Origin: Candidatus Sigynarchaeum calidifontis | GTDB lineage: Archaea; Asgardarchaeota; Lokiarchaeia; Sigyniarchaeales; Sigyniarchaeaceae | Assembly (NCBI GenBank): GCA_030587475.2 | Contig: JAUQYZ020000135.1 | Span: 1-45,689 of the forward strand | Length of the DNA: 45,689 bases | Direction: 5' to 3' | Part shown: positions 7,437-23,600 of the stretch, piece by piece | Layout of the letters: each line of letters opens with the position of its first letter | Position numbering within the stretch: position 1 is the first letter of the stretch | Notes under the pieces: generated by a model | The model's input: only the letters and a program-made list of their open reading frames with translations | What the model was told of the DNA's origin: nothing | Database searches by the model: none | Translations under genes and position numbers: made by a program

Positions 7437-9602
7437 TCAATCCAAATCATCCGCGCGTGAAGATCCCTTGGCGAACCGAACCGGCGCGAAAAGATACCTT
7501 GCCCTCTCCTCGTCCTTTTTTATCCCTGTCAAAGGATTACCTCGCAAATCAAGCAGCCGGAGTTTCGCCAGGTGTAGCAAGTTCCCCAATGAGTCGATCT
7601 GGTTGCCGCTCGCGAGGAACTCGCGCAAGTGGGGCATGGTGTCGATTTCCCTGGTGTTTTTCAAGTAGTTGTTGTGCACGTCGACGTGGGACACGGCGGG
7701 GAAGTTGCTGATCCCCTTCAGCGCGCCCAGGTTGTTGTCCGACAAGTCGAGCCGCTCGACGCTCGGGATGGTCGTGTCGTTCTCCAGCTTGACGATCCCG
7801 TTCCCGTTCAAGAATAAAACCTTCAGTCGCTCCATGGCGGGACAATCTTGCAAGTTGTCGAGCTTGTTCCATGCGAGATTCACGGAATCAAGTTTCTGGC
7901 AAGTATCGAGTCCTTTTATTTGCGACATCTTGGTGAACTGGTTCCGGGATAAGTCGAGCACCTCTAAACCCCCGCGAGCAAAGGTAACATCCACGTTTTT
8001 CAAGTTGTTGCAGTGGAGATCCAGGAAATGCACGGGGACTTTCTTGCCAGACGGTTCGAAGTTGGTGAGCAAGTTCCGGGACAGGTCCAGGCACCGCAAG
8101 TCTGGCCAGGTTCCAAGCGACTCGACATTCTTGATCGCGTTATTTGAAAGATCCAAAAACTTGAGCTTGGATAATTCATTGATCGCTGGCGGGATCTCCC
8201 TTAACCGGATCCCGGATAAGCCGATACCGGTGATGCTTCCTTTGTGCAGCATGATCCAGGGTATTTTTTTGAATTCTGGTGGTAACAGCGGGAGAACCGG
8301 TGGCGGCTGCCCGCAATCGAGCACGTGGACGACCGGCAGGGCAGGATCCTTGGGAGGAAGGATCACGGCGAGCGCGTCGACGACGCCACGAGGAACGCCC
8401 ATTTGTTCAAGGGCATCGAGATTCACCTCGCGTCGTTGTTTCCCAGCCGCATCACCATCAAGAACCAGCCCCTGCCAGACTTCCCCGAATTGGACGAGCT
8501 CCTCGCTCGTTATCATTGTCTTGCGGGCGGCATCCAGTTGCTTCGTGATGATGCCCTTTATCTTGTTGACCTTCTCACGATCGAGGGCAGTGTCGGAGAT
8601 TCGCTTTTTCCACGACGTGAACTGGCGATCCAACGCCCACGGGTTCGCCATCTTGAGGTAGGCAAGCACCTTTGAAGCGATGTCCCCGGCTTGCTTATCT
8701 TTCTGCATCCGCTCCCGCAGTAATTCCTCCCTTTCCGTGTCATCAAGCTTGACGCGAGCTGGGCGTTTCGATGCCGGCGTCGTTCGCAAGGTATACAAGC
8801 GCAAGAAAAAATTGGCGTGGACAACTCGCATGTCTCGATTGATGAACGTGGCGACAGTATCGCGATCCATTAACCCGAGCAAATCGAGGACATCATCTCC
8901 CTTGTCTTCGGACATGCTTCCCGCGCGGAGCAGCGCGTCGACGAGCATCGGTTGCTTGCCGTTTCGCGTCAAGAAATCATCAAACACGCGCCGTTTACTC
9001 GCGATGCTACATTCTTTGAGGATGGACGCGCTTTTATGAATCAACCACGCGTGACCTGTCGGGTCATTACAAAGAAGCATCTCGGCAATGGCAAGGGCAC
9101 GCCTTGCCCAGTCGACGTAATCGAGTTGCTTTTCCACGATATCCATGAAGATGTTCGTGAACGAAATCGCACCCAGGGATCCAACGAAACTTGCAAGGAT
9201 TCTCGTGAGCCAGTTGTCCCCGGCTCGTCGCGAGATCGCGTCAACACCGTTGTCCGTGAGAACCAGCTGTAAATTCGTCAGCGGGAGAAATTTCTTGAGA
9301 ACCCGCTCGACAACCACCTTTGTATCCGCTCCTTGGAACAATTGCCAGTTATCGGGGTGTAACAGCACGAATAGCGCCTTGCACTTGTCCAAGATGATGT
9401 CATGGATGCCTGGACGAAGCATTTGCTCGGCAACCTTGTTACCATCCTTGTTGTCGATAACATTCCCTGACGAGTCGAGGATGGTTTCGGTCCCTCCTGC
9501 CCTCCACGTTATTGCTTTATTGAGCACGATACCAAATGGCCGGTCCACATCGGGCTTTATATCTTCGAGATCCTTCCGGATGAGGTCGGCGAGGGAAGCC
9601 AT
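7437..9602 (-). CDS. Leucine-rich repeat protein (helical N-terminal region, C-terminal SDS22-like LRR solenoid)
   Basis: About 10 LxxLxLxxNxL repeats (LKFLDLSNNAI, LRCLDLSRNLL, LEVLDLSRNQF, LRLLDLRGNPL); start may lie up to 9653. Confidence 0.88.
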   Translation of the reverse strand: MASLADLIRKDLEDIKPDVDRPFGIVLNKAITWRAGGTETILDSSGNVIDNKDGNKVAEQMLRPGIHDIILDKCKALFVLLHPDNWQLFQGADTKVVVERVLKKFLPLTNLQLVLTDNGVDAISRRAGDNWLTRILASFVGSLGAISFTNIFMDIVEKQLDYVDWARRALAIAEMLLCNDPTGHAWLIHKSASILKECSIASKRRVFDDFLTRNGKQPMLVDALLRAGSMSEDKGDDVLDLLGLMDRDTVATFINRDMRVVHANFFLRLYTLRTTPASKRPARVKLDDTEREELLRERMQKDKQAGDIASKVLAYLKMANPWALDRQFTSWKKRISDTALDREKVNKIKGIITKQLDAARKTMITSEELVQFGEVWQGLVLDGDAAGKQRREVNLDALEQMGVPRGVVDALAVILPPKDPALPVVHVLDCGQPPPVLPLLPPEFKKIPWIMLHKGSITGIGLSGIRLREIPPAINELSKLKFLDLSNNAIKNVESLGTWPDLRCLDLSRNLLTNFEPSGKKVPVHFLDLHCNNLKNVDVTFARGGLEVLDLSRNQFTKMSQIKGLDTCQKLDSVNLAWNKLDNLQDCPAMERLKVLFLNGNGIVKLENDTTIPSVERLDLSDNNLGALKGISNFPAVSHVDVHNNYLKNTREIDTMPHLREFLASGNQIDSLGNLLHLAKLRLLDLRGNPLTGIKKDEERARYLFAPVRFAKGSSRADDLD

Positions 9603-12218: not shown

Positions 12219-14297
12219 ATGAGTGAAAAGAAAGCAAAAGCTGGTAATATCGAAGCGAAAGCCGAAGCAAAAACTGAAGCGAAACCAGCCGCAGCCGAAG
12301 CGAAACCAGCCGCAGCCGAGGAGAAACCTGCCGAGATAGGTGTTTTCGTGTGCAATTGCGGTATCAACATCGCAGGGGTGGTAAACATTGCAGATACCGT
12401 CGAAGCTGCAAAGAAGATGCCTGGCGTGAAATATGCCGAGAACAACCTTTCCTATTGCACCGAGGCCGGCGCCGTCGCCATCCAGAAGGCAATCGATGAG
12501 TACAAGCTCAAGCGCGTCGTCATCGCTGCTTGCACCCCCAAGACGCATTTACCCGTGTTCCAGAGCGTCCTCAAGGCGGCCAATCTCCCGAAGCGCATGC
12601 TCGAGTTCGTGAACCTTCGCGAGCAAGACGCGTTCGTTCACATGCACGACAAGGACAAGGCGACGGAGAAGGCAAAATCTCTTATCGCAGCTGCAGTGGA
12701 GCGTGCCAAGAACCTCGAGGACATCCCGACCGAGATCGTGGACGTCACCAGGAAGGCACTCGTCATCGGTGGCGGTGTTGCTGGACTCCAGGCAGCGCTC
12801 GACCTCGCGAAGTTGGAATACGACGTGACCCTCGTGGAGAAGACCCCCACAACTGGCGGGAAGATGGCAAAGCTGGACAGGACATTCCCGACCGACGATT
12901 GTTCGATCTGAATATTGGGGCCGATCATGCTCGAGGCGAACCGGAACCCGAAAATCAGGACCTTGACCTACTCGGAAATCGAAGGGTTCTCCGGGTTCGT
13001 CGGAAACTTTGACGTGCGCATCCGGAAGAAGGCTCGATATACAACAAGCAAATGCAATGGATGCGGCGCTTGTTTCGACGTATGCCCCGCGTATCGACCC
13101 CATGACTTCGAATACGGCATGGCCCAGTCCAAGGCGATCTATAAATCCTTCGCGCAAGCAGTTCCCGGCGTCGTTCAAATCGACAAGCAATATTGCATCG
13201 ATTGTGGTCTCTGTGCCAAAGCTTGCGAATTGCAAGCGATCGATTACAACCAGAAAGATGAAATAATCGAGGAGCGATTTGGCGTGGTCGTTGTTGCCAG
13301 CGGGTTCACCGAATACTTGCCTCCAGTTGGCACACTCGGTTTCGGCGAATACGAAAACGTGATCACGCAAGGGCGACTGGAACGCATCCTTGCGCCGAAC
13401 GGCCCGACAGTAGGCCATCTCGTGCGCCCGAGCGACGGGAAGCATCCCACGCGTATTGCCTTCATTCAATGCGTCGGTTCGCGAGATACGCAGTCTAATC
13501 CGCATTGTTGCACGACTGGCTGCCTGCTTTCAGTCAAGAACTCGAAACTTATCAAGCAGCACTACCCCGATACAGAGGTTTACGTGATATTCATGGACCT
13601 CAGGTGCACGGGTAAGATGTCTGAAGAGTATTCCATGGCCACGCGCCAGGAAGGCGTCCACTTCATCCGGTCGAATATTGGCCGTGTATGGGAGGATCCG
13701 AAAACCAAGAATATCGTGCTACGTTTCGAGGACACGATGAATCCAGGCGTGCTCCAGAAGCTCGAGGTTGATCTGCTCGTTCTCACGACGAACATGGTGC
13801 TCGGCGAGGATGGCACGAAACTTGCCAAGATGCTGAAGCTTGACATGTCGCCCGACGGTTTTATGAAGGAATACCACGCGCGCCTCGACCCGATATCGAC
13901 CAAGATCCCCGGCATCTTCCTCGCGGGCACGTGCCAATCGCCAATGACAATCGCCGAGAGCATCGGTCACGCGAAGGGCGCCGCGTCCAGCGCGGCTCGC
14001 ATCTTGCAAGCCAGGAAGTACGAGATCGAGCTCATCCGGGCAGTCGTCGAGAAGCAAGAAGCGTGCTCGAAGTGCTATCGATGCGTGGAGGCGTGCCCGT
14101 ATAACGCGATCTCGATCGATGAGAACGGGAAGATAACCGTCGACGTGATCCTGTGCAAAGGATGCGGGACTTGCTCGAACGTGTGCCGCTCGCAAACGAT
14201 CCAGCTTCGATATTACCGGGATCCCGGCTACGATGGCCAGATCGACGCACTTTTCGCGTCGGTCGTGCCTCAAGAAATGAAGGACTCGAGCAAATGA
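12219..14297 (+). CDS. hdrA: Heterodisulfide reductase subunit A, selenocysteine-containing (UGA at 12909-12911, codon 231; 692 aa)
   Basis: Track ORFs 12219..12911 and 12915..14297 are in the same frame and join as FPTDDCSI-U-ILGP, matching FPTNDCSL-C-ILAP in the paralogue at 20615; CNCGINI, AACTP, GGGVAG, QCVGSR and ferredoxin motifs; SECIS downstream. Confidence 0.93.
12276..12317 (+). repeat. Exact 21-bp tandem duplication (EAKPAAA x2) in the Ala/Lys/Glu-rich N-terminal extension of HdrA
   Basis: gaagcgaaaccagccgcagcc at 12276-12296 and 12297-12317. Confidence 0.9.
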
Positions 14298-14353
14298 GTC
14301 GTGCGCCCAAAGGCAGCGCGCACGATGATGGAGGCAGCAAGCCTTTCTCGAGT
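14284..14353 (+). ncRNA. Eukaryote-type SECIS element (cis-acting mRNA structure) overlapping the hdrA stop codon
   Basis: AUGAG (14294-98)/UGAU (14326-29) tandem G.A core; perfect 8-bp helix UCGUGCGC/GCGCACGA; apical AAA (14309-11); basal helix ACUCGAG/CUCGAGU. Confidence 0.85.
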
Positions 14354-14431
14354 ATATTCCTATCAATAGAAAACCATGCCAGGTCGGCGACGGCCTGGCA
14401 ATCACGATTATAATTGCATCATCAGTAATAC

Positions 14432-14458
14432 CATCAAATTCATCACATTCATCAAATG
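14432..14458. repeat. 9-bp imperfect tandem repeat x3 just upstream of the frhB-like gene
   Basis: CATCAAATT CATCACATT CATCAAATG. Confidence 0.6.
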
Positions 14459-14465
14459 AACCAAC

Positions 14466-15542
14466 ATGAGCAAGGTAATAGTGAAAAAGGGCGACCAGCC
14501 CAATTTTAAAAAGATCATTTCAGAGGTTCTTGATAAAAACAAGTGTTGCGATTGCGGGATTTGCCAGTCAGTTTGTTTTCTTGCTGGAGCTGGAGTGATC
14601 AAGTACGAACGACCTGCCTACCGCGTATACGACGATGAAAAGTGCGTCCGGTGTGGATTTTGCCAGGCTGCTTGCCCCGTGACCTCCTACGACACCAGCG
14701 AATCTGATCACCGGGTCTTCCGGGGTCATGTCGGAAATTACTTGAGTATCCGCTCGTTCACGTCAAAGATCGAGGGTGTCGCCGAGCGGGCGCAAGACGG
14801 GGGTGCCGTGACCAGCATCTTGCTTTACATGATCGACAACCACGTCGTTGATGCGGTTATGGTCACCAAGCACTTGCAAGGATGGGAGCCATCGTCTTTT
14901 CTCACGAAAAATCGTGATGAAATTATCGCGTCTGCGGGAAGCAAGTATGCAACCAACCCCGTGTTCAAGGCGATCACATCGCTCAAGGATCTTCCGCCTG
15001 CGGAAGTGGCCAAGTACGGCGTGAAAAAAATCGACGATCTCCGCATCGCGGTCGTGGGCTTGCCGTGCCAGATATCGGGCCTCACGAAGGTGCAAAATCT
15101 CGGCATCTTTCCGGCGAATCTCATCAAGATCAAGATCGGCCTGTTTTGCTTCAAGAATTATAACTGGATTCGTTTTCAAGAGTTCCTCACGAAAAAACTC
15201 AAGATCAAGCTCGATGATATCAAGAAGATCCGGATTCTCGGGGACATGACCATCACCCTCACCAATGGAAAGGTTTTAACGGTTAAATCCAAGGATTACG
15301 ACAACCTGGTGAACGAGGGATGTGCCTGGTGCAAGGATCTCACGGCGCACGACGCGGACATCTCTTGCGGGAATATCGGTTCCAAGGAGGGGGCCACGAC
15401 CGTCGTCGCGCGCACGAAGAAAGGGCTCGAGATCGTCGACCGCGCGCGGATTGCTGGTTACATGGACGACGCGGGGGTCGTGAACGTGAAGGAAGTGACC
15501 AAACAAGCCCGGATGAAGCTGGACCGGGCAAAGACGGAGTGA
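14466..15542 (+). CDS. Coenzyme F420 hydrogenase/dehydrogenase beta subunit family protein (FrhB/FdhB/FpoF-like) with N-terminal 2x[4Fe-4S] ferredoxin domain
   Basis: CCDCGICQSVC and CVRCGFCQAACP; QDGGAVT, AGSKY, VGLPCQ, IGLFC, GCAWCKD...ADISCG. Confidence 0.9.
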   Translation: MSKVIVKKGDQPNFKKIISEVLDKNKCCDCGICQSVCFLAGAGVIKYERPAYRVYDDEKCVRCGFCQAACPVTSYDTSESDHRVFRGHVGNYLSIRSFTSKIEGVAERAQDGGAVTSILLYMIDNHVVDAVMVTKHLQGWEPSSFLTKNRDEIIASAGSKYATNPVFKAITSLKDLPPAEVAKYGVKKIDDLRIAVVGLPCQISGLTKVQNLGIFPANLIKIKIGLFCFKNYNWIRFQEFLTKKLKIKLDDIKKIRILGDMTITLTNGKVLTVKSKDYDNLVNEGCAWCKDLTAHDADISCGNIGSKEGATTVVARTKKGLEIVDRARIAGYMDDAGVVNVKEVTKQARMKLDRAKTE

Positions 15543-20614: not shown

Positions 20615-23600
20615 ATGTCGGCTAAACCTGGCAGCAACGTGCCGAAGTCTGGCGAGGTCCTGGTCGTGGGAATGGGCGTCGCGGGCATTCAAGCGAGCCT
20701 TGACCTGACACGCCTTGGATTCCACGTCACCGCAGTTGAAAAGGGGAAAACCATCGGAGGAATAATGGCCCAGCTCGATAAGACTTTCCCCACGAACGAT
20801 TGTTCACTTTGTATTCTGGCTCCAAAAATGGTCGAAGTATATCGCGATCCGAACATCACGCTTTACCAAAATACCGACATCAAGAAGATTGAATATCTGC
20901 CGGATGGAAACATAAAAGTATTTCTCGAAAAACAGAACATGGGCATTAACGAGGCAGCGTGCAAGAACTGCGGCGAATGTAACAAGGTATGCCCCATCCA
21001 ATACGACGAGCCCATCACGTGGTTCGACGCTGGCCTCGCGCGCCGCAAGGCGGTCAACATCCCGTTTCCATCCGCGGTTCCCCCCGTGTATGCCATCGAG
21101 AAAAACCGGTGTTTAAAAGCCAAGCACAACGCGTGTGGCAAATGCCAGGCCGCTTGCCCATCCAACGCAATCACCTATGATTTCAGCGTTCAAACAATCG
21201 AGCTCGTCGTCGGCGGCATCATCTTCGCGACCGGTTGCACGCCCATGGAACCCAAGCGATTCCCGCGGTTCCTCGGTGGCCACCCCGACGTTCTCAGCAG
21301 CATCCAGTTCGAGCGGCTCATGTGCGCGAGCGGGCCGACCGGCGGCGAGATCATCAAGCGCTCCAACAAGAAGCACGCGAACCGCATCGCATTCATCCAG
21401 TGCGTCGGCTCCCGCTCGAAACGCCCCGGCGAGCTCGAGTATTGCTCGTCGGTCTGCTGCATGTACGCGATGAAGGAGGCGCAAATTACCAAGGAACACG
21501 ATCCCCACGTCGAGTGTTACATCTTCAATCCCGAGAACAGGGCCTGTGCCAAGGGCTTCCACGAGTATTTTTTGCGGTCCAGGAATGAATACGGGGTAAA
21601 ATTCATGCCTGGCCGCGTGTCCCGTGTTCATGATTTCAAGGATTCACCAGATCTTGCCGTGGAATTCGAAGACGACATCACCGGCGAGCCCGCCGAGCTG
21701 CGCGTCGACCTGGTCATCCTCGCAACGGGACTCGTCCCGAACACGCAAGATGTCTCGAAAGTGCTCGGCATCGGCTTGAACAAGTACGGGTATTTTGACA
21801 CCCCGGTCATCGAGGACCTCGAATCGAAGGGGATCTATCTCGCCGGTTATGACATCAAGCCCATGGACATCCCGCTATCGGTCGTGTCCGGCAGCGCGGC
21901 AGCGGCGAAGGTCTCGCGGCGTTTACACGCTGCCCGGTTTTCACGCATTGTCACGCCGAAACTACCCAAGGAAAAAAAGGTGACAAGCGCGGACGAACCG
22001 CGGATCGGCGTGATGGTATGCCACTGCGGTATCAACATCGGGCGCACGATCGACTGCGAGCGCGTGGCCAAGGAGATCGCTAAAGTGCCCAACGTCGTCG
22101 TGGCTGATCACAACAATTACACGTGTAGCTCCGATTCGCAAGTCACGATCAAGAACATGATAACCGAGCATAACTTGAACCGGTTCATCGTGGCATCATG
22201 TACGCCGAGGACACACGAGGCGTTGTTCCGTGGCACGCTGCAAGAAGCGGGCCTGAACCCGTACTTGTTCGACCTCGTCAACATCCGGGAACACGCGTCG
22301 TGGGTGCACATGACCGAGCCACAAGCCGCGACGGAGAAGGCCATCGAGCTCATCAAGATGAGCATCGGCAAGGTACGGGAACTCGGTCCCCAGCAGAAAA
22401 AACAAATAAAAATAACCAAGTCCGTGCTCGTCATCGGTGGCGGCCCAGCGGGATTGTTCGCTGCGGATAACCTGGCAAATCAAGAATTTGACGTGTTTCT
22501 CGTCGAGAAGGAAGCCATGCTTGGCGGGGCGACCAGGACGTTCACCCGCAAGTTGCTGCTCCCCGACGAGAGGCTCGCGATCAACCGCATGGAAGGGATA
22601 ATTCAGCAACTTGGAGGAAATCCACGCGTGCGGATCTTCTTGAATTCACGCGTGGTGGACGTGTCCGGCTTCGTTGGCAATTACAAGGTCAAGATCGCGC
22701 ATGACGGCAAGATTGAAGAGGTCGACATCGGCGGCATCATCGTCGCCACCGGCGTGGCCCAGGATCCGAATGTCGCCATCGCGACGAGGGCTTCTTCCCC
22801 GCGCATCTTCACGCAAGAGCAATTCGAGCACGTGTTGGACGAAGGCAAGCTCGATGGCATCAAGCGCGTCGGGTTCATCCAATGTTCAGGCCAGCGCCAC
22901 GATGGAAGCATAACTTCCGATTTTCCGAACTGTTCCGGGATCTGCTGCAAGATCACGCTCAAGCAAGCGAAGCTCATGCGGCAGCTCGAGCCCGACGCGA
23001 GCATCTATATAATGCAACGTGGGATGAATCTCAGCGGGGACGTGGAGAATGAGGCTCTCTTCCAGGATGTGCAGCGATATGCTGGCGTGGCACGGTATGA
23101 TCCTTCAGAATACCCTGATATCAAGGTGGTAGGGAAGGAATTGCATGTTACATTCAAGGAGCGGAATTCGAGCGAGCAGCTCGACTTGGCCCTCGATGCG
23201 GTCGTGCTGGCCACCCCGTACAAGTCGGCAGCCGGCACGAAGGACCTCGCCATGCAGCTCAAGGTGCCCGTGACCCAGGATGGTTTCATGCTCGAGGCAC
23301 ACGTGAAACTGCGCCCCGTGGACTTCGCAACCGAGGGTATCTTTGTTGCCGGCGGGGCACAATGGCCCAAAGCCTTGGAAGATGCCATTTTACAAGGTAT
23401 CGCCGCTTCAGGCAGAGCAATTGGCTTGCTCGCAAAGGGATTTGTCGAAGCCGAAGGAATCACTGCAGAAGTCGACGAGTCCATGTGTATCGGGTGTCGG
23501 AAATGCGAGTCGGTATGCCCGTACAAGGCCATCGAGATGGTACCACGTGAATCCATCATCGACATGGAACGCGTGACGGTCTATAAAGCCCACGTGATCG

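What the first reader, a model, noticed from the sequence alone, without database searches (positions are those of the whole stretch)
14284..14369. The SECIS core AUGA is the gene's own stop codon
Seen: the terminating TGA (14295-14297) is the UGA of the AUGA kink-turn core, and the 5' arm of the basal helix (ACTCGAG) lies within the codons for the final residues D-S-S. Inference: a ribosome reaching the terminal UGA must melt the SECIS, so this UGA cannot be recoded while the upstream one can. That would discriminate stop from Sec and might couple Sec insertion to ribosome traffic. Alternatively the original stop was lost and the frame simply runs into the SECIS. Read-through here would add U plus 23 residues, up to TAG 14367-14369.
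Basis: partly seen in the sequence, partly recalled or inferred. Interest (0 to 1): 0.8.

Follow-up and report, generated by a model that had tools for sequence, protein, structure and literature searches.

The report
Asgard SECIS containing hdrA's stop codon
The RNA signal that makes this Asgard archaeon read an internal UGA of its hdrA gene as selenocysteine really does contain the gene's own UGA stop codon, but this overlap was published for Asgard archaea in 2016, so this is a new example (the first I found for hdrA) of a known arrangement.

Summary
hdrA (12219-14297) carries a Sec codon at 12909-11. It ends on TGA 14295-97, which is the UGA of the AUGA core of a eukaryote-like Asgard SECIS (14284-14353: 7-bp basal helix, AUGA/UGAU core, 9-bp stem, 11-nt AAA loop, third hairpin).

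The overlap is not a recent accident. Six of seven orthologues (74-92% protein identity) stop on the core UGA, although both helices show compensatory changes. The seventh has UAA two codons upstream.

The overlap is not obligatory or special to hdrA. In this family it occurs in 10 of 28 SECIS-bearing genes. In AT-rich relatives of the same order it occurs in 4 of 22, and other genes stop 4-64 nt upstream.

UGA stops lie 0-30 nt from the core UGA. The nearest putative Sec codons lie 50-53 nt upstream, which fits discrimination by proximity.

Mariotti et al. 2016 already described AUGA serving as the stop codon (VhuU.1) and proposed a minimal-distance rule. Huang et al. 2024 say the overlap is frequent. 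This scan has also reported the same overlap on other Asgard DNA.

New here: an hdrA with its own SECIS and a UGA stop, contrary to the 2016 statement that HdrA always ends in UAA or UAG. Coupling to ribosome traffic is untested.

The parts
12219..14297 (+). hdrA selenoprotein gene (692 codons plus stop)
   Evidence: Pfam finds FAD/pyridine-nucleotide oxidoreductase and 4Fe-4S domains.
12909..12911 (+). Sec codon (UGA) at the canonical HdrA position, DDCSI-U-ILGP
   Evidence: It aligns with Cys of the paralogue at 20798 and is TGA in all orthologues. It lies 1386 nt upstream of the stop.
14284..14353 (+). Whole SECIS element, a three-way junction of the lokiSECIS / eSECIS-like type I
   Evidence: Fold. 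Conserved with compensatory changes in orthologues. Same shape in 25 elements of the order.
14284..14290 (+). Helix I, 5' arm ACUCGAG, inside the codons for D-S-S
   Evidence: Pairs with 14347-14353. G002 has A-U changed to G-C, and G003 has a different 7-bp helix CCCAGAC/GUCUGGG.
14294..14297 (+). SECIS core AUGA; its UGA (14295-14297) is the hdrA stop codon
   Evidence: The core reads AUGA or GUGA in orthologues and is the in-frame stop in 6 of 7.
14298..14306 (+). Helix II, 5' strand (9 nt)
   Evidence: Pairs with 14318-14326. The first pair, G.U, is the fourth non-Watson-Crick pair of the quartet; this position is unpaired in 12 of 25 relatives.
14307..14317 (+). Apical loop, 11 nt, CCAAAGGCAGC, with AAA
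   Evidence: The AA in this loop is invariant in alignment A1.
14318..14326 (+). Helix II, 3' strand
14327..14328 (+). 3' core GA, within UGAU 14326-14329; partner of the GA of AUGA
   Evidence: GA is invariant in 25 of 25 elements.
14330..14346 (+). Third hairpin (6 bp, loop AGCAA) between the 3' core and the 3' arm of helix I
   Evidence: Fold. An equivalent hairpin is present in the SECIS of the whole order.
14347..14353 (+). Helix I, 3' arm CUCGAGU
14298..14369 (+). Notional read-through tail (23 codons plus TAG); judged not translated
   Evidence: The tail is alike among close orthologues only where the SECIS RNA is conserved. Beyond that it differs in length and sequence.

Best explanation
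Positions 14284-14353 are a genuine Asgard eukaryote-like SECIS (lokiSECIS type). It directs Sec insertion at UGA 12909-11 of hdrA, 1.39 kb upstream. In orthologues it serves up to three Sec codons, as far as 1.94 kb upstream. The gene's real stop codon is the UGA inside the element's AUGA kink-turn core. Stop and Sec are told apart by position. When UGA 14295-97 is in the A site, the ribosome holds roughly 14280-14310 in its mRNA channel. That stretch includes the 5' arm of helix I, the core and the 5' strand of helix II. The SECIS therefore cannot be folded or bound, and release factor wins. This step is inferred. The overlap itself is a tolerated and evolutionarily changeable way of ending a gene next to its SECIS. 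It is favoured in this GC-rich lineage, where UGA is the usual stop, and it is not a dedicated regulatory device. It probably arose when this hdrA lost its vhuD partner and acquired or kept a SECIS of its own directly behind the coding sequence.
For: Shown:
- The anatomy matches the published lokiSECIS: AUGA, a 9-bp stem, an 11-nt loop with adenines, and GA (definition).
- The element sits behind a gene with a Cys-aligned UGA.
- The genome holds tRNA-Sec and a Sec-containing selD with its own SECIS.
- Six of seven orthologues end on the core UGA, although the helix sequences differ (GUCGUGCGC, UUCGCAUGC, UCCCCGCGG, UGCCCCCCG). A 6-nt insertion in L042 keeps the frame.
- The G001, G002 and G003 orthologues carry extra Sec codons at the Cys47 and Cys105 positions, served by the same element.
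- UGA stops of SECIS-adjacent genes lie 0-30 nt from the core UGA. The nearest putative Sec codons lie 50-53 nt upstream.
- hdrA genes more than 450 nt from a shared SECIS end in UAA or UAG in all 26 loci outside this family. The same holds in this genome (C47, UAG), although TGA makes up 58% of stops here.
- The core UGA serves as stop in other genes too: vhuD, the C14 protein and G002 selD.
- The published interpretation is the same (Mariotti 2016; Huang 2024).
Against: - There is no experimental evidence here: no RNA or proteomic data, and no RNA run was listed.
- The size of the ribosome footprint in Asgard archaea is assumed from bacteria and eukaryotes.
- The SECIS-binding factor in Asgard archaea is unknown (no SBP2 was found).
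- The published 'ultraconserved G' at the end of the loop is not in register here (the loop ends AGC).
- Rfam's eukaryotic SECIS models do not match.
- The 0-30 versus 50-53 nt boundary rests on few, related cases. The Sec status of the GGG-U-x-G codon is itself inferred.
Confidence: 0.8

Rival explanations
1. The overlap is itself selected. An in-frame core UGA would act as a fail-safe or regulatory stop, and each terminating ribosome would reset the SECIS, so that Sec insertion is coupled to ribosome traffic.
For: The arrangement is kept in 6 of 7 hdrA orthologues despite helix turnover and a 6-nt indel that preserves the frame. In L041 the core UGA stays in frame behind a new UAA. Several genes of this family have an in-frame UGA followed 2-9 codons later by the core UGA (C129, L055, L063, L064, L066). 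In this family the coding sequence is in frame with the core UGA in 18 of 28 cases.
Against: Leaving out the hdrA orthologues, the count is 11 of 21 (binomial p = 0.056, not corrected for relatedness). In AT-rich relatives it is 6 of 22, as chance predicts. L041 and many other genes work with UAA or UAG upstream. Nearly every SECIS of the order would be melted by terminating ribosomes anyway. Neutral turnover from an ancestral core stop explains the retained frames.
Confidence: 0.12
2. The terminal UGA is also partly read as Sec, giving an HdrA isoform with U plus 23 extra residues.
For: A SECIS is present, UGA is the Sec codon, and an open frame continues to TAG 14367-69.
Against: The tail is conserved only where the RNA is conserved. 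Past the SECIS it differs in length and sequence (24, 26, 31, 31 and more than 100 codons). Differences between close orthologues fall in the loop and at the base of the stem, not at third codon positions. The SECIS must be unfolded when this codon is decoded.
Confidence: 0.05
3. This is not a SECIS but a chance hairpin or a transcription terminator, and hdrA is a gene broken by a UGA.
For: There is no Rfam match. My covariance model found only its own training sequence in this genome.
Against: The UGA is conserved at a Cys position in all orthologues, and the reading frame downstream of it is intact and conserved. The core, helix lengths and loop adenines are conserved with covariation. Sec machinery is present. 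Huang 2024 report that SECISearch3, a eukaryotic SECIS search tool, gave no significant results on these elements.
Confidence: 0.02

Closest known systems
lokiSECIS of Lokiarchaeota, in particular VhuU.1 (Mariotti et al. 2016, PMC4989117)
   Same: AUGA...GA core, 9-bp stem, 11-nt loop with adenines, position at the very end of the coding sequence. For VhuU.1 the paper states that the AUGA motif also works as the gene's UGA stop codon, and it proposes a minimal-distance rule.
   Different: Here the gene is hdrA. The paper states that HdrA always ends in UAA or UAG and shares the SECIS that lies behind vhuD. This hdrA is followed by an frhB-like gene, has its own SECIS and ends in UGA. The loop reads CCAAAGGCAGC rather than A-rich with a final AG. 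The genome is GC-rich (54%).
Asgard eSECIS-like type I structures (Huang, Xiao & Zhang 2024, PMC11227280)
   Same: The same core model, including GUGA variants such as those in the G001 and G003 orthologues. The paper says that UGA stop codons of Lokiarchaeia selenoprotein genes often overlap the AUGA motif.
   Different: They report that almost all hdrA share the SECIS of frhD/vhuD. A stand-alone hdrA SECIS with a core stop is not described in the text I read. The third hairpin is not mentioned in the passages I read.
Eukaryotic SECIS (kink-turn, AUGA/GA quartet, AAR loop)
   Same: A core quartet is possible (U.U, G.A, A.G, G.U). There are adenines in the apical loop. The element acts at a distance of 1.4-1.9 kb. 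Minimal UGA-to-SECIS spacing is cited (Martin et al. 1996).
   Different: Helix II is shorter (9 bp against 12-14). The element overlaps the coding sequence instead of lying in a 3' UTR. SBP2 has not been detected in Asgard archaea. Rfam SECIS models give no match.
Methanococcus-type archaeal SECIS (GAA_A bulge)
   Same: It lies 3' of the coding sequence and acts at a distance. It can be placed directly behind the coding region without loss of function (PMC9622424).
   Different: The motif and architecture differ, and the stop codon is not part of the element.

Membership tests
lokiSECIS / Asgard eSECIS-like type I | 5' core [A/G]UGA and 3' core GA (or AA) flanking the upper helix | tested here: met
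   AUGA at 14294-97 and GA at 14327-28. Invariant in the 25 elements of A1.
lokiSECIS / Asgard eSECIS-like type I | Upper stem of about 9 bp and apical loop of about 11 nt | tested here: met
   9 bp plus an 11-nt loop. Definition.
lokiSECIS / Asgard eSECIS-like type I | Unpaired adenines near the start of the apical loop | tested here: met
   The loop CCAAAGGCAGC has AAA at positions 3-5. AA is invariant in A1.
lokiSECIS / Asgard eSECIS-like type I | Conserved G (mostly AG) as the last loop position | tested here: inconclusive
   The loop ends AGC, so AG is one position out of register. Orthologues end AGC, CGC or GGAA. Huang 2024 report wider variation.
lokiSECIS / Asgard eSECIS-like type I | Lies directly behind a gene with an in-frame UGA at a conserved Cys position | tested here: met
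lokiSECIS / Asgard eSECIS-like type I | Helices supported by covariation | tested here: met
   Orthologues chosen by protein homology: 7 of 16 pairs change on both sides and 85.6% of cells are paired. One search agrees, but its sequences were picked by a pairing filter, so that count is circular.
lokiSECIS / Asgard eSECIS-like type I | Host has the Sec machinery | tested here: met
   tRNA-Sec with anticodon TCA and Sec-containing selD. EFSec, PSTK and SepSecS were not searched.
lokiSECIS / Asgard eSECIS-like type I | Actually directs Sec insertion | not testable with these tools
   This needs a selenium-labelling or reporter experiment.
Kink-turn RNA | Tandem sheared G.A pairs with a kinked backbone, bound by an L7Ae-type protein | not testable with these tools
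   The sequence allows G14296.A14328 and A14297.G14327. The geometry and the binding protein are unknown.
Eukaryotic SECIS (Rfam RF00031 and related) | Match to the curated covariance model | tested here: not met
   No hit at the gathering threshold in the window. No SECIS hit at E <= 10 in 14200-14470.

The most novel reading that the evidence does not exclude
In this GC-rich Asgard family, where UGA is the main stop codon, selenoprotein reading frames would be kept in register with the SECIS core UGA. That UGA would then be the one stop that can never be recoded, either as the primary stop or as a fail-safe a few codons behind a recodable UGA. Together with Sec codons as close as about 50 nt, this would define a sharp exclusion zone of about 30-50 nt set by the ribosome footprint.
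Probability: 0.12. Interest if true: 0.55.

Novelty: new member of a known kind. Interest (0 to 1): 0.3.

Why it matters
The case is a natural test of how a cell distinguishes a Sec-UGA from a stop-UGA on one mRNA. The same SECIS recodes UGAs 1.4-1.9 kb away but not the UGA inside itself. It qualifies the 2016 generalisation that HdrA must end in UAA or UAG: that holds only when hdrA lies far from a shared SECIS. It also yields natural variants that could be built directly into reporters: AUGA or GUGA cores, a two-codon insertion, and UAA two codons upstream. For annotation, gene callers split this hdrA at the Sec codon. The finding does not change the current picture of Asgard Sec decoding.

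Tried and rejected
- Rfam at gathering and at E <= 10 gave no SECIS family match.
- A loose genome-wide pattern search gave about 20,000 matches and was useless.
- Pattern scans allowing one mismatch, with or without a basal-helix requirement, gave 204-258 hits, mostly noise. I therefore built the SECIS census from strict hits plus protein homology, and it may be incomplete.
- Covariance model R1, trained mostly on AT-rich relatives, found only its own training sequence in this genome, so I did not use it for a wider survey.
- Sequencing runs: no RNA holder was listed, and the only DNA run holds a small share of the sampled words.
- A search of the supplementary files held under the Huang 2024 record gave nothing on stop overlap.
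- Frame-0 enrichment: suggestive in this family (18 of 28) but 11 of 21 without the hdrA orthologues (p = 0.056, relatedness ignored) and absent in AT-rich relatives (6 of 22). I do not claim it.
- The GC hairpin at 14377-14400 was considered as an alternative SECIS or terminator. It has no AUGA/GA core and is absent from the G001 and L040 orthologues.
- The SECIS serving the downstream genes was rejected: frhB-like, hdrC/B-like and the 1070-aa hdrA-like ORFs are uninterrupted.

Full report
**1. Observation**

The sequence at 14283-14297 reads GAC TCG AGC AAA TGA, which encodes D-S-S-K-stop in the frame of the long ORF 12915-14297.
- That ORF is joined in frame to 12219-12911 through the single TGA at 12909-11. 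Together they give a 692-residue HdrA with FAD and 4Fe-4S domains.
- A14294 plus the stop gives AUGA.
- ACTCGAG (14284-90) pairs with CTCGAGT (14347-53).
- After AUGA, 14298-14306 pairs with 14318-14326. This helix has 9 bp with G.U at its base and encloses the 11-nt loop CCAAAGGCAGC.
- UGAU follows at 14326-29.
- A 6-bp hairpin (14330-46) sits between the 3' core and the basal helix.
- RNAfold returns exactly this three-way fold and leaves AUGA and GAU unpaired. For 141 nt the z-score is -3.9, and none of 200 shuffles folds as well.
- Read-through would add U plus 23 residues up to TAG 14367-69.

**2. It is a SECIS**

- The shape is the one Mariotti et al. 2016 give for the lokiSECIS: AUGA, a 9-bp stem, an 11-nt loop with adenines, GA, at the very end of the coding sequence.
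- The internal TGA aligns with Cys of the paralogue in the same window (DCSLCILAP at 20798). It is TGA in all orthologues.
- The genome is a 4.99-Mb Asgard ('Promethearchaeota') MAG with 54% GC. It holds one tRNA-Sec and a Sec-containing selD with its own SECIS.
- Rfam has no matching family. Huang et al. 2024 also report that SECISearch3, a tool for eukaryotic SECIS elements, gave no significant results on these elements.

**3. Orthologues**

Protein searches found hdrA orthologues in three genomes of the same family and in three metagenome contigs that reach the 3' end of the gene.

| Orthologue | Protein identity |
|---|---|
| G001 | 90% |
| G003 | 81% |
| G002 | 74% |
| L040 | 92% |
| L042 | 87% |
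| L041 | 85% |

The endings are as follows.

| Source | End of the gene | Stop |
|---|---|---|
| G000 (this window), L040 | ...DSSK-UGA | core UGA, AUGA core |
| G001 | ...DSSK-UGA | core UGA, GUGA core |
| L042 | ...DSSKAG-UGA | core UGA; a 6-nt insertion keeps the frame |
| G002 | ...TKE-UGA | core UGA; different helix II, UCCCCGCGG |
| G003 | ...TKE-UGA | core UGA, GUGA core; different helices I and II |
| L041 | ...DSSK-UAA-GGA-UGA | new UAA two codons before the core UGA, which stays in frame |

So 6 of 7 orthologues stop on the core UGA. On the alignment of these seven, which were chosen by protein homology and not by structure, 85.6% of cells in helices I and II are paired. Slid controls give 27-67%. 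Seven of 16 pairs change on both sides.

The G001, G002 and G003 orthologues carry further Sec codons at the positions of Cys47 and, in G001, Cys105. One element therefore serves codons up to about 1.94 kb away.

**4. The wider picture**

*Other families of the same order* (about 50% identity, AT-rich):
- hdrA ends in UAA or UAG in all 26 loci.
- The SECIS usually lies 450-550 nt further on, behind vhuD. This is the published shared-SECIS arrangement.
- In four loci hdrA has its own SECIS, with UAA 21-64 nt upstream of the core UGA.
- Of 22 SECIS in these loci, 4 use the core UGA as the stop of vhuD. One has UGA 4 nt upstream. The rest have UAA or UAG 5-64 nt upstream.
- The frames relative to the core UGA are 6, 9 and 7 for frames 0, 1 and 2, which is random.

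*This genome.* I located eight SECIS of the same three-way shape.

| Location | Gene | Stop arrangement |
|---|---|---|
| Window (C153) | hdrA | core UGA |
| C47 | vhuD | GUGA core UGA; its partner hdrA upstream ends in UAG |
| C14 | unassigned 154-aa protein | GUGA core UGA |
| C129 | CC/Se-like protein | UGA, then 7 codons, then the core UGA |
| C15 | VhuU | UAA 6 codons before the core UGA |
| C63 | a second hdrA with its own SECIS | TAA 13 codons before the core UGA |
| C31 | selD | UAA, out of frame with the core UGA |
| C193 | small membrane ORF | UAG, out of frame with the core UGA |

*Orthologues of these genes in G001-G003* show the same mixture. In G002, selD ends on the core UGA.

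Overall, the core UGA is the stop in 10 of 28 cases in this family. TGA makes up 58% of the stops of long ORFs in this genome, which helps explain why the arrangement is commoner here than in AT-rich relatives.

**5. Mechanism**

Shown by comparison:
- UGA stops of SECIS-adjacent genes lie 0, 4, 9, 18, 20, 20, 24, 27 and 30 nt upstream of the core UGA.
- UGA is never the stop of an hdrA that lies hundreds of nucleotides from its SECIS.
- The closest putative Sec codons are 50 and 53 nt upstream. They belong to the conserved ending GGG-U-[H/P]-G-UAG in G000 and G001.

Inferred, from my own knowledge of ribosome footprints (about 12 nt 5' and about 15 nt 3' of the first P-site base):
- With UGA 14295-97 in the A site, the ribosome covers about 14280-14310.
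- That stretch holds the 5' halves of helix I, the core and helix II.
- Only the third hairpin could persist, the element cannot recruit the Sec machinery, and termination follows.

This is the reasoning Mariotti et al. published. [quoted passage not shown] Huang et al. [quoted passage not shown]

The read-through tail is not conserved beyond what the RNA constrains, so I consider an extended isoform unlikely.

**6. What the overlap is not**

It is not obligatory, as L041 and many other genes show. It is not specific to hdrA.

Melting of the SECIS by terminating ribosomes would apply to almost every SECIS of this order, since their stops lie within 64 nt of the core. 'Coupling to ribosome traffic' is therefore neither supported nor specific to this gene.

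The coding sequence is in frame with the core UGA in 18 of 28 cases in this family. That is suggestive. It falls to 11 of 21 without the hdrA orthologues (p = 0.056, ignoring relatedness), and it is absent in AT-rich relatives at 6 of 22. Neutral turnover from an ancestral core stop explains it as well.

HdrA of this clade has a poorly conserved tail about 12 residues longer than HdrA elsewhere, so the frame does run into the SECIS. The state is old, being shared by three genera.

**7. Novelty**

The phenomenon and its interpretation are published. This scan has also met it repeatedly on other Asgard DNA, with the same verdict.

Specific to this case:
- An hdrA uncoupled from vhuD and followed by an frhB-like gene.
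- A set of natural variants exists.
- There is a small comparative hint of an exclusion zone between about 30 and 50 nt.

I class it as a new member of a known kind, with interest 0.3.

Noticed in passing
G000 contig C193:7273-7497 (+), SECIS core at 7535; orthologue L072 (G001): A small single-pass membrane ORF ends ...GGG-UGA-His-Gly-UAG, and ...GGG-UGA-Pro-Gly-UAG in G001. A three-way SECIS follows 49-52 nt downstream. It is a candidate selenoprotein with Sec near the C-terminus and has no Pfam or NCBIfam match. If real, Sec decoding works as close as about 50 nt to the core.
   Followed up: partly
G000 contig C14:2447-2908 (-) = L047:148-609: A 154-aa protein with no Pfam or NCBIfam match has two adjacent in-frame UGA codons (DPGC-U-U-HKF) and ends on the GUGA core of its SECIS. 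Orthologues in G001-G003 also hold two TGA. It is a possible unlisted selenoprotein family with a Sec-Sec pair.
   Followed up: partly
window 14330-14346 and the equivalent positions in alignment A1 (L014-L037): The third hairpin, between the 3' GA and the basal helix, is present in the SECIS of the whole order (for example ACCAUAAAGCAAUGGU in AT-rich relatives). The three-way junction is therefore the normal form here, not a peculiarity of this gene.
   Followed up: partly
L011 (G001), L013 (G002), L012 (G003): The hdrA orthologues have extra Sec codons where this window has Cys47 (VFVCN-U-GINIAG) and Cys105 (VIAA-U-TPKTH, G001 only). The number of Sec codons varies from 1 to 3 among close relatives.
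   Followed up: yes
window 14397-14458, minus strand: Weak matches to archaeal C/D-box sRNA models (sR2 and sR11, E about 0.7-1, far below gathering). The sequence shows UGAUGA ... CUGA UGAUG ... GUGA spacing in the hdrA-frhB spacer. This could be chance.
   Followed up: no
window 14377-14400: A GC-rich hairpin (GCCAGGUCGG/CCGGCCUGGC) lies 24 nt behind the SECIS. It is absent from the G001 and L040 orthologues. It is possibly a local terminator or an insertion.
   Followed up: partly
G000 contigs C129:8767-8793; L055, L063, L064, L066: Several selenoprotein genes of this family have an in-frame UGA followed 2-9 non-conserved codons later by the in-frame core UGA. This looks like a tandem-stop pattern.
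   Followed up: partly
G000 contig C86:51322 (+): A SECIS-like core and stem resembles the SECIS of the G001 orthologue of the C14 family, but there is no clear basal helix and no intact upstream ORF. It may be a decayed or misassembled paralogue.
   Followed up: no
G000 contig C63:68854-70113 (-), SECIS core at 68815: A second hdrA paralogue in the same genome has its own SECIS, here with TAA 39 nt upstream of the core UGA. Its N-terminal part runs off the contig end.
   Followed up: partly
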